From IMG/VR virus record IMGVR_UViG_2531839662_000027, positions 1-15,076 of that record: a stretch of DNA of 15,076 bases. One strand, 5' to 3'. Source of the stretch: a virus. Its lineage: Duplodnaviria > Heunggongvirae > Uroviricota > Caudoviricetes. Below the pieces are notes generated by a model. It ran no database searches. It was given only the letters and a program-made list of their open reading frames with translations, and was not told where the DNA came from. A program made the position numbers and the translations under genes. Shown here piece by piece: positions 8,126 to 11,820 of this stretch (position 1 is the stretch's first letter; each line of letters starts with the position of its first letter).

Positions 8126-8504
8126 TTAAAACAACGAGCCAAGCAATCCGATACCAGCACCAATGCCAGCGCCCCAAGGTGTTGATGTTCCCAAAAGGCT
8201 GGCAAGACCTGCACCGGCAATCGCACCAGACGTTCCGCCACTAATTGCTGTCTGAAGACTTGATGGTTTGTTGGCATTAGCAGCGGCAAGAGCTGCGCTT
8301 TGCTGTGCAATGCTGCTCATGTTGTTGGCGTACGTCTGCCCGGCGTTTGCCTGACCTTGCAGAGCACCAAGCCCAACGTTTGCCAGATTGTTGTAATTGC
8401 TCATCTGGTTTGATAACCAAGACTGACCGAGAGTCGGCGCGATCGTAGCCAGTTGATTGCTTGTGGCTGTCGAACCAAGTCCTCCCGTAACCGCGAGGCA
8501 TCGA
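8126..8504 (-). pseudogene. 3' fragment of a gp7-like ejection protein gene, 5'-truncated at the deletion junction
   Basis: The open frame runs into cro-derived DNA in a frame different from cro; the first 17 codons of track ORF 8126..8554 are cro DNA read out of frame, so no native start or RBS remains. C-terminus is Gly/Ala-rich and hydrophobic. Confidence 0.45.
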
Positions 8505-8582
8505 CTATACGCCGAGATCTTTAGCTGTCTTGGTTTGACCAAAGCGCATTGCATAATCTTTCAGAGTTATGCGTTGTTCCAT
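8505..8582 (-). pseudogene. cro: cro, truncated after codon 25 by a deletion junction
   Basis: Minus strand reads CATGTACTAAGGAGGTTGTATGGAACAACGCATAAC...AAAGATCTCGGCGTATAG: lambda cro RBS and first 25 codons (MEQRITLKDYAMRFGQTKTAKDLGV), then a stop where lambda has TAT CAA AGC; sequence 3' of 8505 is unrelated to cro. Confidence 0.8.
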
Positions 8583-9403: not shown

Positions 9404-9841
9404 ATGATTAAAGAACGTATTTCTTATATCATTCCGATTGCGATGGATGAAGGCAACCCCGTAACTCCAGTTCTTATCTATGAAATGGATAAAGACTCCC
9501 ATGAAGTGGATCTGTCATTTGGCGCTTTTTTTATCGGCCTTAAGGCTACAAAAAAATATTCCATAGGCATTGAGGTTTTCAATGCTCAAGAAATACCGAT
9601 ACCAATTGACACAAAACTGTACTCCAACCATAAGTTTTTTACGGTAGCAGAAGCCAACGATGGAGAAACCATCGTATCAACTTCTATGAGAATTAACTTC
9701 CCAAGGGTGAAAATTATCAAGCCTGGGATATTCGAAGTTAGAGCATCACTGGTTAATCCTGAGAAAGGCGAAGTAATTGATGTAAAAAGTTCGTTTTTTG
9801 ACGTGAAGATAACAGGATCAGTTCGCGATGAGTTTAGATAA
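9404..9841 (+). CDS. Hypothetical 145-aa protein in the rex position (first gene of the cI-linked module)
   Basis: ATG 7 nt after the cI stop, no terminator between; no transmembrane segment evident; AT-rich; no similarity to RexA that I can recognise. Confidence 0.6.
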   Translation: MIKERISYIIPIAMDEGNPVTPVLIYEMDKDSHEVDLSFGAFFIGLKATKKYSIGIEVFNAQEIPIPIDTKLYSNHKFFTVAEANDGETIVSTSMRINFPRVKIIKPGIFEVRASLVNPEKGEVIDVKSSFFDVKITGSVRDEFR

Positions 9842-10199
9842 CAAGGTTGCTCAGCTTCGTCCAAATCAAAACATATCTCGCCCAATTGGACACTATTCCA
9901 CTGATGATGCATACTCACGGCATGGTGGAGGAAACGGCGGAGGTAACATGCTTGAGGCTAGAGTTGCAAAGCTAGAGTCTGATGTTGAATACATCAAGCG
10001 CGATCTCGCTGAGGTAAAGTCAGATATAAAATCTGTTGATTCTCGTCTGTCAGGTATTGAGACAAGCATTAGCTCAGCAAAAACCACCATTAAGGCATCT
10101 GCGGTCGTTGTCAGTTTCGTGTTCGCATTTTGCGCCTACATTTTTGGAAGTTATGTTTCCAAAATCCTTGATGCCTTAAACGGACTCGTTCTTAAGTAA
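9828..10199 (+). CDS. Hypothetical small membrane protein (123 aa, or 80 aa from the internal start at 9958): Gly-rich linker, coiled coil, C-terminal hydrophobic segment
   Basis: Overlaps the previous ORF by 14 nt; heptad-like LEARVAKLESDVEYIKRDLAEVKSDIKSVDSRL; hydrophobic AVVVSFVFAFCAYIFGSYV; internal ATG at 9958 is preceded by GGAGGTAAC; a strong terminator follows. Confidence 0.6.
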   Translation: MSLDNKVAQLRPNQNISRPIGHYSTDDAYSRHGGGNGGGNMLEARVAKLESDVEYIKRDLAEVKSDIKSVDSRLSGIETSISSAKTTIKASAVVVSFVFAFCAYIFGSYVSKILDALNGLVLK

Positions 10200-10206
10200 C
10201 ACACAA

Positions 10207-10233
10207 CCCGGCCTCAGTGCCGGGTTTTCTTTG
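10207..10233 (+). terminator. Rho-independent terminator ending the cI operon (t-imm equivalent)
   Basis: Perfect 6-bp GC stem CCCGGC/GCCGGG with 6-nt loop followed by TTTTCTTTG, directly after the second rex-slot ORF. Confidence 0.7.
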
Positions 10234-10383: not shown

Positions 10384-10446
10384 AACCATCTGCGGTGATA
10401 AATTATCTCTGGCGGTGTTGACACAAATACCACTAGCGGTGATACT
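10384..10446 (+). promoter_or_regulatory. Lambda-type left operator and pL: oL3 (10384-10400), oL2 (10404-10420), oL1 (10428-10444); pL -35 TTGACA (10418-10423), -10 GATACT (10441-10446)
   Basis: AACCATCTGCGGTGATA, TATCTCTGGCGGTGTTG and TACCACTAGCGGTGATA match lambda oL3/oL2/oL1 as recalled; 17-bp spacer between -35 and -10; oriented toward N. Confidence 0.85.
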
Positions 10447-10645: not shown

Positions 10646-10954
10646 ATGACGGTAATCGTGTACGGAAAATCAACATTTGCAGGAAATGCCAAGACTCGCC
10701 GTCATGAGCGGCGCAGAAAGCTGGCCATCGAGCGTGATTCCATCTGCAACATCATCGATTCGATCTTCGGCGCAGACAGTGAGGAGCCTGTTCAGGAAGC
10801 CCCGAGAAAACGTTTAAGCCTTTCTGAAAAAGCAATATCACTCGGAATCCTTCGCTGCAAGAAGGCAGATGAATGCAGTGGAAGTATTTGCCTGCCAAAC
10901 GTAGCCATTTACGCGGCAGGCTACCGGAAATCAAAACAACTGACGGCGAGGTAA
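10646..10954 (+). CDS. N: N-family transcription antiterminator, P22 gene 24 type
   Basis: Arginine-rich motif GNAKTRRHERRRKLAIERD near the N-terminus matches the P22 N RNA-binding peptide as recalled; ATG at 10646 preceded by GAGGA; first gene after pL/nutL. The track ORF from 10562 is an upstream in-frame extension, judged not used. Confidence 0.8.
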   Translation: MTVIVYGKSTFAGNAKTRRHERRRKLAIERDSICNIIDSIFGADSEEPVQEAPRKRLSLSEKAISLGILRCKKADECSGSICLPNVAIYAAGYRKSKQLTAR

Positions 10955-11182
10955 GTGATGAATCAGACATACATTCCATCATGCTTGAGAAATCTGCCAA
11001 AGCAGAAAGCAAAGCCCCGCAAGCAAGCCATAAAGGACGCTAAGGCAGAGGTTATTGATCAAGCAATACAATTGCTCAGGGAGGAGTTAAGAAGTGGCAA
11101 GCTCGAAGGAATGATGATGCCCTATCAGCGCGGATATCTATCGGCGATTAGTAAGTTGGAAGTACTGAAGAGTGAATTATGA
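10955..11182 (+). CDS. Hypothetical 75-aa basic/helical protein
   Basis: ORF starting GTG-ATG immediately after the N stop (coupled); no recognisable motif. Confidence 0.45.
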   Translation: MMNQTYIPSCLRNLPKQKAKPRKQAIKDAKAEVIDQAIQLLREELRSGKLEGMMMPYQRGYLSAISKLEVLKSEL

Positions 11183-11244
11183 ACTATCTGGAATTTCCGG
11201 ATGGTTCATTGTTTTGGCAGCAAACCACTTATTTGAGGTGATAT

Positions 11245-11331
11245 ATGGAAGAAGAATTTGAAGAGTTCGAAGAGCATCCTCAGGATGTGATGGAACAATA
11301 CCAGGACTATCCTTATGACTACGACTATTGA
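11245..11331 (+). CDS. Possible micro-ORF encoding a 28-aa highly acidic, aromatic peptide (MEEEFEEFEEHPQDVMEQYQDYPYDYDY)
   Basis: ATG preceded by GAGGTGATAT; the 3' end overlaps the ral start by 17 nt; below the ORF-track length cutoff. Confidence 0.3.
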   Translation: MEEEFEEFEEHPQDVMEQYQDYPYDYDY

Positions 11332-11515
11332 TAAAAATCAATGGTGTGGACAATTCAAGCGATGCAATGGATGCAAGCTGCAATCGGAATGCATGGTTAA
11401 ACCTGAAGAAATGTTTCCTGTAATGGAGGATGGGAAATATGTCGATAAATGGGCAATACGAACGACGGCAATGATTGCCAGAGAACTTGGTAAACAGAAT
11501 AACAAGGCTGCCTGA
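11315..11515 (+). CDS. ral: Ral, restriction alleviation protein (66 aa)
   Basis: Translation MTTTIDKNQWCGQFKRCNGCKLQSECMVKPEEMFPVMEDGKYVDKW... matches lambda Ral as I recall it; expected position in the pL operon downstream of N. Confidence 0.8.
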   Translation: MTTTIDKNQWCGQFKRCNGCKLQSECMVKPEEMFPVMEDGKYVDKWAIRTTAMIARELGKQNNKAA

Positions 11516-11574
11516 TGGTGGCCTTTGTTTTTTGGCCGTAAATAATTTCATGCTTATTACAATCAAGGGGATAT

Positions 11575-11820
11575 ATGGAAGAACAAGCAAACAAGATTCT
11601 CGTAGAACTACTGCAAAAAGCCAGTAATGGAATAGACGCGGCTGTTTCATTTAGCCAGGCACAGATTCCTGATGTCATCCATCAGCTTTTGATGTGGCAC
11701 GCCGTATCATCAGCTGGAATTCAGGCTACATGGTCAGACGAAGAATTCATTCGTCAGATGAACAAAATGCTCAATCAGCACAAAGAACAGGAGAAAGATG
11801 ATGATTCTGACTCTGAATGA
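11575..11820 (+). CDS. Hypothetical 81-aa protein with a strongly acidic C-terminal tail (EQEKDDDSDSE)
   Basis: ATG preceded by AAGGGGATAT; overlaps the next ORF. Confidence 0.5.
   Translation: MEEQANKILVELLQKASNGIDAAVSFSQAQIPDVIHQLLMWHAVSSAGIQATWSDEEFIRQMNKMLNQHKEQEKDDDSDSE

What the first reader, a model, noticed from the sequence alone, without database searches (positions are those of the whole stretch)
11179..11331. Chain of coupled micro-ORFs ending in a 28-aa hyper-acidic aromatic peptide directly upstream of ral
Seen in sequence: the stop of the 75-aa ORF overlaps an ATG (ATGA at 11179-11182) opening a 20-codon ORF (MNYLEFPDGSLFWQQTTYLR). Three nt later GAGGTGATAT-ATG opens a 28-codon ORF encoding MEEEFEEFEEHPQDVMEQYQDYPYDYDY, which overlaps the ral start. 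Inference: a peptide this acidic and aromatic is the composition expected of a DNA-mimic, and its position next to ral (restriction alleviation) suggests an anti-restriction or anti-defence role. It could equally be a translational-coupling leader for ral.
Basis: partly seen in the sequence, partly recalled or inferred. Interest (0 to 1): 0.45.

Follow-up and report, generated by a model that had tools for sequence, protein, structure and literature searches.

The report
Lambda orf28 acidic micro-protein beside ral
The 28-residue acidic peptide ORF is phage lambda's long-annotated but never-characterised gene orf28, which is as strongly conserved as its anti-restriction neighbour ral, while the 20-codon ORF before it is better read as a terminator hairpin plus a module junction.

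Summary
The 28-codon ORF (11245-11331) encodes a peptide 100% identical to lambda orf28 (lambdap47, phrog_16060), annotated as a hypothetical protein, so it is not new.

It is a real gene:
- In 47 distinct alleles from about 10 enterobacterial genera it never has an in-frame stop.
- Every indel is a whole number of codons, and ATG/GTG starts interchange behind a strong SD.
- Changes at codon positions 1/2/3 number 12/10/39.
- In loci found through Ral alone, pN/pS is 0.22, against 0.24 for ral.

It is not merely a ral leader. One clade lost ral by a clean deletion and kept the peptide under purifying selection (changes 2/3/16), now overlapping a Lar-family restriction-alleviation gene. In two phages the motif is the C-terminal tail of a larger protein.

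The 20-codon ORF is not supported. Its first 31 nt form a strong terminator-like hairpin (z = -5.8), its 3' end lies in a mosaic junction, and a 5-nt deletion shifts its frame in relatives.

Function is untested. An accessory anti-restriction role is the best guess. DNA mimicry is speculative.

The parts
10646..10954 (+). N antitermination gene (P22/HK620 type). It is the first gene of the leftward early (pL) operon that carries the finding.
   Evidence: Pfam PF25694 N_peptide, E 9e-41. RefSeq CDS in E. coli UMNF18 at the equivalent position.
10955..11182 (+). 75-aa ORF of unknown function (phrog_5305). Its stop overlaps ATG 11179.
   Evidence: Annotated as a hypothetical protein in phi296, mEp213 and UMNF18.
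11179..11217 (+). Terminator-like element: a 14-bp stem with a 3-nt loop (11179-11209) followed by TGTTTTGG. It is the first such element downstream of N, so it is the tL1-equivalent by position (inferred).
   Evidence: Scan hit. Fold -20.8 kcal/mol, z = -5.79, 0 of 200 shuffles as stable. Invariant in APC_JM3.2, mEp213 and L036. Terminator activity not tested.
11179..11241 (+). 20-codon ORF (MNYLEFPDGSLFWQQTTYLR). Probably not a gene.
   Evidence: Its ATG and first 10 codons lie in the hairpin stem. Its last 7 or so codons lie in the shared junction, which in phage 21 is the 3' end of N read in another frame. A 5-nt deletion in L036, L117, L178 and L092 changes its C-terminus. It matches only positions 1-20 of the 106-position phrog_37429.
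11216..11250 (+). Conserved module junction (GCAGCAAACCACTTATTTGAGGTGATATATGGAAG). It supplies the SD and ATG to whichever cassette follows.
   Evidence: Found on its own in many phages that lack ral (H67-H90). In mEp213 and VT2-Sakai it precedes different genes.
11235..11242 (+). Shine-Dalgarno GAGGTGAT for orf28, 6 nt from GAGG to the ATG.
   Evidence: Read from the sequence. An SD-like purine run is kept 5-9 nt upstream of the start in diverged homologues despite different surrounding sequence.
11245..11331 (+). orf28: 28-aa acidic, aromatic micro-protein gene, identical in product to lambda orf28.
   Evidence: 100% identical to NP_040623.1. phrog_16060, E 7e-19. Coding tests.
11303..11306 (+). 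AGGA, the probable SD of ral, inside orf28 codons Q20-D21 and 8 nt before the ral ATG.
   Evidence: Read from the sequence. CAGGA is kept in 46 of 47 alleles. Phage 21 annotates an RBS here.
11315..11515 (+). ral, the restriction alleviation gene (66 aa, identical to lambda Ral).
   Evidence: Pfam PF11058, E 1.6e-48. phrog_1055. Alignment A3.
11504..11535 (+). Terminator-like hairpin (AAGGCTGCCTGATGGTGGCCTT) plus a T-run. It overlaps the ral stop and forms the 3' boundary of the cassette.
   Evidence: The same ...KAA* plus hairpin ends the alternative cassettes in mEp213 and VT2-Sakai, and it directly follows orf28 in the ral-deleted clade.

Best explanation
Window 11245-11331 is the lambda gene orf28. 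It is a genuine protein-coding gene for a 28-residue peptide with net charge about -12. It has its own strong ribosome-binding site and lies in the N-dependent leftward early (pL) operon.

Shown here:
- It is under purifying selection as strong as that on ral.
- It is inherited with ral as one two-gene cassette, bracketed by a conserved 5' junction and a 3' terminator hairpin.
- It is an autonomous peptide module. It persists under selection where ral has been deleted, it then overlaps a Lar-family restriction-alleviation gene, and it occurs as a C-terminal tail on other small phage proteins.

Inferred:
- The peptide is an accessory early anti-restriction or anti-defence factor. It probably has no fold of its own: two short acidic helices around the invariant His-Pro, then a Tyr-rich tail. 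It would act by folding onto a basic or nucleic-acid-binding surface. The target could be the type I restriction-modification complex that Ral and Lar act on, or the small Cys4 alleviation proteins themselves.
- Ribosomes finishing orf28 pass over ral's SD and ATG, so orf28 translation probably also tunes ral translation. That is a secondary effect, not the reason the peptide is conserved.

The upstream 20-codon ORF is not part of a coding chain. Its 5' half is a terminator-like hairpin after the 75-aa ORF, and its 3' half is the module junction.
For: Identity:
- Product 100% identical to lambda orf28, with the same 17-nt overlap with ral. phrog_16060, E 7e-19.

Coding:
- 47 distinct alleles with 0 in-frame stops, against 46 and 67 in the other two frames.
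- Codon-position changes 12/10/39. Pooled pN/pS 0.18, against 3.24 and 1.38 in the other frames.
- E7, F8, H11, P12 (all four Pro codons), D14, Y19 and Y22 are invariant as amino acids but vary synonymously.
- All indels are in-frame, and ATG and GTG starts interchange.
- In 15 loci found through Ral alone, excluding the search-motif and overlap codons, changes are 9/6/23 and pN/pS is 0.22. For ral in the same loci it is 0.24.

Breadth:
- Escherichia, Salmonella, Shigella, Kluyvera, Cronobacter, Erwinia, Pantoea, Providencia and Proteus.

Cassette:
- The same 5' junction and the same ...KAA* plus terminator flank alternative genes in mEp213 and VT2-Sakai.

Autonomy:
- A ral-deleted clade of 9 contigs keeps the peptide, with changes 2/3/16. 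More stand-alone copies appear in metagenomes.
- C-terminal-tail fusions occur in Klebsiella phage XY3 and Brenneria phage BREN6.

Anti-restriction neighbourhood:
- Ral lies downstream in 124 distinct sequences. A Lar-family gene (PF14354, 36.2 bits against a cutoff of 28.6) overlaps the start in 6 of 6 ral-less sequences with enough flank.

No competing RNA explanation:
- No conserved RNA structure in orf28 and no relevant Rfam hit.

The 20-codon ORF:
-.
Against: - I could obtain no direct evidence of translation. The lambda ribosome-profiling paper is not held.
- No functional data exist in the held literature. Lambda orf28 is listed only as a non-essential hypothetical protein.
- The anti-restriction role rests on gene neighbourhood alone.
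- The Lar association is not independent of the ral association, because that clade carries a remnant of ral's 3' end. Its ancestor therefore had Lar, orf28 and ral together.
- Two Ral lineages (Citrobacter-type P0021, and P0035) lack orf28. They have an unrelated 66-aa gene overlapping the ral start instead, so Ral does not need it.
- In lambda-type contigs with a broken ral, peptide variants are enriched: 6 of 10, against 14 of 110 when ral is intact. That hints at some dependence on ral and conflicts with full autonomy. The sequences are not phylogenetically independent.
- Part of the conservation of YQDYPY may come from ral's SD and ATG, which are embedded there.
- The AF2 model of a natural fusion was uninformative.
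Confidence: 0.55

Rival explanations
1. Pure translational-coupling leader. orf28 exists only so that ribosomes translating it open or deliver to the ral start, and the peptide itself has no function.
For: There is a 17-nt overlap, with ral's SD (AGGA) and ATG inside orf28. Even where orf28 is absent, another ORF overlaps the ral ATG as ATGA. That suggests ral is generally translated in a coupled arrangement.
Against: The amino-acid sequence is constrained upstream of the overlap, with pN/pS 0.22, the same as ral. E/D swaps preserve the charge. The gene is maintained under purifying selection in a clade with no ral. It also occurs as a tail on other proteins.
Confidence: 0.08
2. Obligate partner of Ral. 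The acidic peptide would be a stoichiometric subunit, chaperone or neutraliser of the slightly basic, Cys4 Ral protein, and would have no role without it.
For: The two are almost always adjacent and overlapping (124 distinct sequences) and move as one cassette. Peptide variants are enriched when ral is broken: 6 of 10 against 14 of 110, Fisher p = 0.0014, though the sequences are not independent. Ral cloned alone had 'little to no effect' in one study (PMC9410887). Klebsiella phage XY3 fuses a Cys-rich mini-domain to the acidic module.
Against: The ral-deleted clade keeps the peptide under selection. Two Ral lineages lack it. The natural orf28-Ral fusions are singletons. AF2 on one such fusion gave no confident contact.
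Confidence: 0.17
3. An autonomous effector unrelated to restriction. One example would be an acidic, aromatic decoy resembling the SSB C-terminal tail (own knowledge) or an acidic activation motif, binding a host replication, repair or transcription protein during early infection.
For: The gene is autonomous and portable. The composition is acidic plus aromatic. The location is the early pL accessory region, which also holds kil, gam and cIII-type host-modulating genes.
Against: The extreme C-terminus is variable (...DYDY...DH...YD...YEN), unlike tail motifs that are read from the free C-terminus. The only consistent neighbours with a known function are restriction-alleviation genes.
Confidence: 0.17
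4. Not a gene. The stretch would be conserved at the DNA or RNA level, as a recombination boundary, an RNA structure, or the ral 5' UTR.
For: The 5' junction is a recombination boundary. The window RNA has a modest fold z-score of -2.2.
Against: Third-position variability dominates, there are no in-frame stops, and indels are in-frame. No conserved structure is found (-0.77 kcal/mol). There is no Rfam hit.
Confidence: 0.03
5. The 20-codon ORF would be translated by coupling to the 75-aa ORF and would hand ribosomes on to orf28.
For: There is an ATGA overlap. The 20-codon ORF is in the same frame as orf28 and ends 3 nt before its ATG. A terminating ribosome would melt the hairpin.
Against: There is no SD. 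The ATG is buried in a -20.8 kcal/mol stem. A frame-shifting 5-nt deletion is tolerated in four contigs. The arrangement is absent from lambda, P22, Sf6, phage 21 and all distant lineages, where orf28 has other upstream neighbours.
Confidence: 0.08

Closest known systems
Bacteriophage lambda orf28 (lambdap47, NP_040623.1; PHROG phrog_16060)
   Same: The 28-aa product is identical. The SD and the 17-nt overlap with ral are the same, and so is the place in the pL operon.
   Different: Nothing of substance. Only the upstream neighbour differs: here a 75-aa ORF plus a hairpin, in lambda the sieB region.
DNA-mimic anti-restriction proteins Ocr (T7 gp0.3) and ArdA
   Same: They are very acidic and are early anti-type-I-restriction factors. 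They are discussed alongside Ral in PMC9410887.
   Different: Those are folded proteins of more than 100 residues that display carboxylates on a rigid DNA-shaped surface (own knowledge). orf28 has 28 residues, no predicted stable fold, and no Pfam or PDB similarity. It may work like a polyanionic decoy, but it is not a member of these families.
T4 Stp, a roughly 26-residue peptide that acts on the type IC enzyme EcoprrI (own knowledge, not checked here)
   Same: It is a precedent for a phage-encoded peptide of under 30 residues that targets a type I restriction-modification enzyme.
   Different: There is no sequence resemblance and Stp is not acidic. Its genomic context and phage group are different.
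Ral (PF11058) and Lar (PF14354) restriction-alleviation proteins
   Same: They are the immediate, overlapping gene neighbours of orf28-like genes. They act on type IA enzymes through the HsdM N-terminal domain (PMC12707154).
   Different: orf28 is not homologous to either. Both are small Cys4 proteins, and orf28 has no Cys and is highly acidic.
Leader or upstream ORFs that act by translational coupling
   Same: The ORF is short and overlaps the start of the downstream gene.
   Different: The peptide sequence is under selection as strong as that on ral, and the ORF survives without the downstream gene.

Membership tests
lambda orf28 / phrog_16060 | Sequence match to the 28-position family profile and to lambda NP_040623.1 | tested here: met
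   phrog_16060 E 7.1e-19 over positions 1-28 of 28. Translations identical.
lambda orf28 / phrog_16060 | Position: own SD, directly upstream of ral, overlapping ral by 17 nt | tested here: met
   Window 11245-11331 against ral 11315-11515. Lambda 34271-34357 against 34087-34287.
DNA-mimic anti-restriction proteins (Ocr/ArdA type) | Strong net negative charge | tested here: met
   12 D/E and 0 K/R in 28 residues. Net charge ranges from -7 to -13 across alleles.
DNA-mimic anti-restriction proteins (Ocr/ArdA type) | Homology to a known mimic family | tested here: not met
   No Pfam, NCBIfam or PDB sequence match.
DNA-mimic anti-restriction proteins (Ocr/ArdA type) | A stable fold that presents carboxylates with B-DNA-like spacing | tested here: inconclusive
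   The only model I could submit was a natural orf28-Ral fusion. It gave pLDDT of 51 or less over the peptide and pTM 0.36. At 28 residues the peptide is below the tool's 30-residue limit for a stand-alone prediction.
DNA-mimic anti-restriction proteins (Ocr/ArdA type) | Binds and inhibits a DNA-binding defence enzyme | not testable with these tools
   This needs biochemistry or plating assays.
Translational-coupling leader ORF | Stop/start overlap with the downstream gene | tested here: met
   17-nt overlap, with ral's SD inside orf28.
Translational-coupling leader ORF | Peptide sequence itself free to vary | tested here: not met
   pN/pS 0.18-0.22, the same as ral at 0.24.
Translational-coupling leader ORF | Exists only together with the regulated downstream gene | tested here: not met
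   Stand-alone copies remain under selection without ral. The motif is also fused as a tail on other proteins.
Protein-coding micro-ORF (claim for the 20-codon ORF 11179-11241) | Reading frame and peptide conserved in relatives | tested here: not met
   A 5-nt deletion shifts the frame in L036, L117, L178 and L092. The ORF is absent from all phages that lack the 75-aa-ORF module.
Intrinsic (Rho-independent) terminator (claim for 11179-11217) | Stable stem-loop directly followed by a T-run | tested here: met
   A 14-bp stem and then TGTTTTGG. Fold -20.8 kcal/mol, z = -5.79.
Intrinsic (Rho-independent) terminator (claim for 11179-11217) | Terminates transcription and is overridden by N | not testable with these tools
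   This needs in vitro transcription or reporter assays. There is no covariation to count because the hairpin is invariant.

The most novel reading that the evidence does not exclude
The orf28 family would be a new class of anti-restriction or anti-defence effector. It is a portable acidic peptide of about 25 residues (consensus [ED]x[FI][ED]EF[ED][ED]HPxD[DV]MxQYQDYPY). It would act as a minimal polyanionic decoy that folds on binding to the type I R-M machinery, or would potentiate the small Cys4 alleviation proteins Ral and Lar. That would explain why it is kept next to either of them and is sometimes fused to other small proteins. It would mean that lambda's classical 'ral' function is really a two-component module.
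Probability: 0.3. Interest if true: 0.7.

Novelty: already known. Interest (0 to 1): 0.4.

Why it matters
Lambda is the best-studied temperate phage, yet orf28 has stayed a 'hypothetical protein' for four decades. Most gene callers and RefSeq skip it. At 87 nt it falls below a common minimum gene length, and it has no Lys or Arg, so tryptic proteomics would not detect it (both points are my own inference).

The evidence here has three parts:
- The gene is as constrained as ral.
- It is present in roughly 15% of complete E. coli genomes (786 of 5,426 carry at least 80% of the segment).
- It is tied to two unrelated restriction-alleviation families.

Together these make a concrete question cheap to test. 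Does Ral or Lar alleviation involve an acidic peptide cofactor, or is this an independent mini anti-defence factor? Either answer would refine a textbook system and add to the short list of functional phage peptides under 30 residues.

Tried and rejected
I used degenerate DNA motif scans instead.
- PDB, Pfam and NCBIfam searches with the peptide found nothing. Ral also has no solved relative.
- AF2 on the natural in-frame fusion P0011, used as a proxy for a peptide-Ral complex, gave mean pLDDT 58.5 and pTM 0.36. It is uninformative and I drew no conclusion from it.
- 'Rosetta-stone' support from the orf28-Ral fusion proteins P0001, P0005 and P0011 was rejected. The P0001 cluster is mostly ordinary Ral and the fusion sits on one 1.2-kb contig.
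- A conserved RNA structure inside orf28 was rejected. No relevant Rfam family was found.
- The lambda ribosome-profiling paper and the Casjens-Hendrix review could not be read. The peptide string appears in no held paper.
- A translated search of phage genomes with the peptide is mostly blinded by the low-complexity filter, but it did yield the two tail fusions.
- Covariation support for the hairpin was not obtainable because it is invariant in all 15 phage records that carry this module.
- The relaxed-constraint test in ral-broken lambda-type contigs is kept only as a weak, non-independent hint. It conflicts with the ral-less clade.
- My first version of that script had an off-by-3 error, which I corrected.

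Full report
**1. Checking the observation**

The sequence is as described.
- A 75-aa ORF (10955-11182) ends in TGA, overlapping ATG 11179.
- That ATG opens a 20-codon ORF (11179-11241).
- Its stop lies inside GAGGTGAT (11235-11242). Three nt later ATG 11245 opens a 28-codon ORF (11245-11331) encoding MEEEFEEFEEHPQDVMEQYQDYPYDYDY.
- This ORF overlaps ral (11315-11515, Pfam PF11058, E 1.6e-48) by 17 nt.
- The peptide has 12 D/E, no K/R and 7 F/Y.

**2. Identity**

The window is a lambdoid or P22-like prophage early-left region. It holds a P22/HK620-type N gene (10646-10954, PF25694), then the 75-aa ORF, then the finding, then ral, then RecT and further genes. It matches the E. coli UMNF18 chromosome at 100%.

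Lambda's reference genome annotates orf28 (lambdap47, NP_040623.1) at 34271-34357, overlapping ral (34087-34287) by 17 nt. Its translation is identical to the window's peptide. The peptide also has its own PHROG, phrog_16060, of unknown function (E 7e-19). The main object of the finding is therefore already catalogued.

In the held literature orf28 appears only as a non-essential hypothetical protein (PMC10695390) and in delta-orf28-ral strain names (PMC2327257). RefSeq does not annotate it in UMNF18.

**3. Is orf28 a real gene?**

I collected copies in three ways:
- through Ral;
- through annotated phages;
- through degenerate motif scans.

Across 47 distinct nucleotide alleles:
- The ORF never has an in-frame stop. 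The other two frames have 46 and 67.
- All length differences are whole codons.
- ATG and GTG starts interchange behind an SD-like purine run.
- Minimum changes at codon positions 1/2/3 before the ral overlap are 12/10/39.
- Pooled pN/pS is 0.18, against 3.24 and 1.38 in the shifted frames.
- E7, F8, H11, P12 (all four Pro codons), D14, Y19 and Y22 are invariant as amino acids but vary synonymously. Acidic positions swap E and D.

Some of those sequences were found through a YQDY motif, so I repeated the test without that bias. I used only the 15 loci found through Ral, and excluded the motif codons and the overlap. Changes are 9/6/23 and pN/pS is 0.22. For ral in the same loci pN/pS is 0.24.

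Hosts include Escherichia, Salmonella, Shigella, Kluyvera, Cronobacter, Erwinia, Pantoea, Providencia and Proteus.

There is no conserved RNA structure and no relevant Rfam family. I could not obtain direct translation data.

**4. Relationship to ral**

The shared module begins about 25 nt before the orf28 ATG. That junction, GCAGCAAACCACTTATTTGAGGTGATATATGGAA, occurs on its own in many phages. There it provides the SD and ATG for unrelated genes: mEp213_045 and VT2-Sakai orf20. Those genes end with the same ...KAA* plus terminator hairpin as ral. So orf28 and ral form one exchangeable two-gene cassette.

The link is not absolute, however.
- Two Ral lineages (P0021, Citrobacter type, and P0035) have an unrelated 66-aa gene overlapping the ral ATG instead.
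- A clade of 9 viral contigs, plus metagenome copies, has lost ral by a clean internal deletion. The orf28 stop there is followed directly by ral's last codons and the terminator. The clade still keeps the peptide, with changes of 2/3/16 at codon positions 1/2/3.
- In Klebsiella phage XY3 and Brenneria phage BREN6 the motif ...[FI]xxHPxDxMSQYQDY... is the C-terminal tail of 56-aa and 81-aa proteins, with no ral nearby.

These observations argue against both a mere leader peptide and an obligate Ral subunit.

One weak counter-signal exists. Among lambda-type contigs with a frame-shifting ral deletion, 6 of 10 distinct sequences carry a peptide variant, against 14 of 110 when ral is intact. These sequences are not independent, and the ORF is intact in all of them.

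**5. Functional clue**

In the ral-less clade, the gene that overlaps the start of the orf28-like gene is a Lar-family restriction-alleviation protein (PF14354, 36.2 bits against a cutoff of 28.6). This holds in all 6 distinct sequences with enough flank.

Ral and Lar are unrelated small Cys4 proteins. Ral acts on type IA enzymes through the HsdM N-terminal domain (PMC12707154). That Lar does the same is my own knowledge.

The acidic peptide thus stays embedded in a restriction-alleviation neighbourhood whichever alleviation gene is present. This is guilt by association, and the two associations are not independent, because that clade's ancestor had Lar, orf28 and ral together.

Ral cloned alone had little effect in one recombineering study (PMC9410887). 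That fits a helper role but proves nothing.

DNA mimicry in the Ocr/ArdA sense is not supported by any fold or homology evidence. A peptide that folds on binding is the more plausible physical picture.

**6. The 20-codon ORF**

- Its first 31 nt are a 14-bp hairpin followed by TGTTTTGG. The fold is -20.8 kcal/mol with z = -5.8.
- This is the first terminator-like element after N and the 75-aa ORF.
- A second terminator-like hairpin overlaps the ral stop (11504-11525). The cassette therefore sits between two terminators and should depend on N read-through (inferred).
- The ORF's last codons lie in the junction. In phage 21 that junction is the 3' end of N, read in another frame.
- Four contigs carry a 5-nt deletion that changes its C-terminus and runs it across the orf28 start, with orf28 untouched.
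- The ORF exists only in the 15 or so phage records that carry the 75-aa-ORF module.

I conclude it is a by-product and not a link in a coding chain.

**7. Verdict**

- The feature is already known as lambda orf28, so novelty is low.
- It is a well-supported, uncharacterised micro-protein gene in a model phage, with a testable link to restriction alleviation. Interest is moderate (0.4).
- The most novel reading the evidence allows is a portable acidic peptide that is itself an anti-restriction effector or a cofactor for Ral or Lar. I give it a probability of about 0.3.

Noticed in passing
window 11504-11535: A terminator-like hairpin plus a T-run overlaps the ral stop codon. The same ...KAA* plus hairpin ends unrelated cassettes in mEp213 and VT2-Sakai, so it acts as a 3' recombination boundary.
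   Followed up: partly
window 11575-11820: The 81-aa ORF starts in a context (GGGGATATATGGAAGAAC, giving MEEQ...) that resembles the orf28 junction. It ends in an acidic tail (KDDDSDSE). Its two halves hit different PHROGs (phrog_3054 for residues 1-53, phrog_17766 for 52-78), so it looks like a mosaic gene.
   Followed up: no
window about 8126-8582 (from the UMNF18 annotation): A cro remnant abuts truncated DNA-transfer and ejection protein genes. The prophage seems to have lost its replication, lysis and head regions and is probably defective. In UMNF18 it lies next to torI and dsdC.
   Followed up: no
window 10418-10446 and 10205-10226: A good sigma-70 match (TTGACA, 17 nt, GATACT) sits where pL should be, upstream of N. 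A terminator-like hairpin follows the 123-aa ORF 9828-10199.
   Followed up: no
L126, L125, L123/L129, L169, L173, L191, L218, L225, L227: The same frame-shifting internal deletion of ral (product MTTTIDKNQWCGQYERRQ) recurs in prophage contigs with different upstream modules. It is either a spreading allele or a deletion hot-spot between short AATGG repeats.
   Followed up: partly
L242/L243 404-604 and L245 404-604: In Citrobacter-type phages an unrelated 66-aa gene (MAKITFGFCSAEKAHAVQKG...) with no PHROG or Pfam hit takes the orf28 slot. It overlaps the ral ATG by 4 nt.
   Followed up: partly
L265 5452-5532 and equivalents in L250, L257, L255, L266: A conserved hydrophobic ORF of about 26 aa (MISTGNYIFGWLVIGVLMGLGFIAGG), with its own GGAGG, follows the stand-alone orf28-like gene and terminator. 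It may be a small membrane peptide.
   Followed up: no
L010-L030: Ral/orf28 sequence 100% identical to lambda turns up on short or low-coverage contigs of unrelated genome assemblies (Nocardioides, Paenibacillus, Bradyrhizobium, Vibrio and others). This is almost certainly lambda DNA contamination in public genomes.
   Followed up: no
P0001, P0005, P0011: Rare predicted orf28-Ral fusion proteins arise from a 1-nt deletion or an in-frame deletion. They are singletons and possibly assembly errors.
   Followed up: yes
L046, L154: A TGA-to-TTA change in the SD region (GAGGTTAGAT) removes the stop that separates the upstream frame from orf28. This creates a longer open frame and weakens the SD.
   Followed up: no
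L031 about 2640-2660: The Kluyvera ral homologue appears frame-shifted (MTIDTN...AIRPRQ*, then continuing in another frame), while its orf28-like ORF is intact.
   Followed up: no
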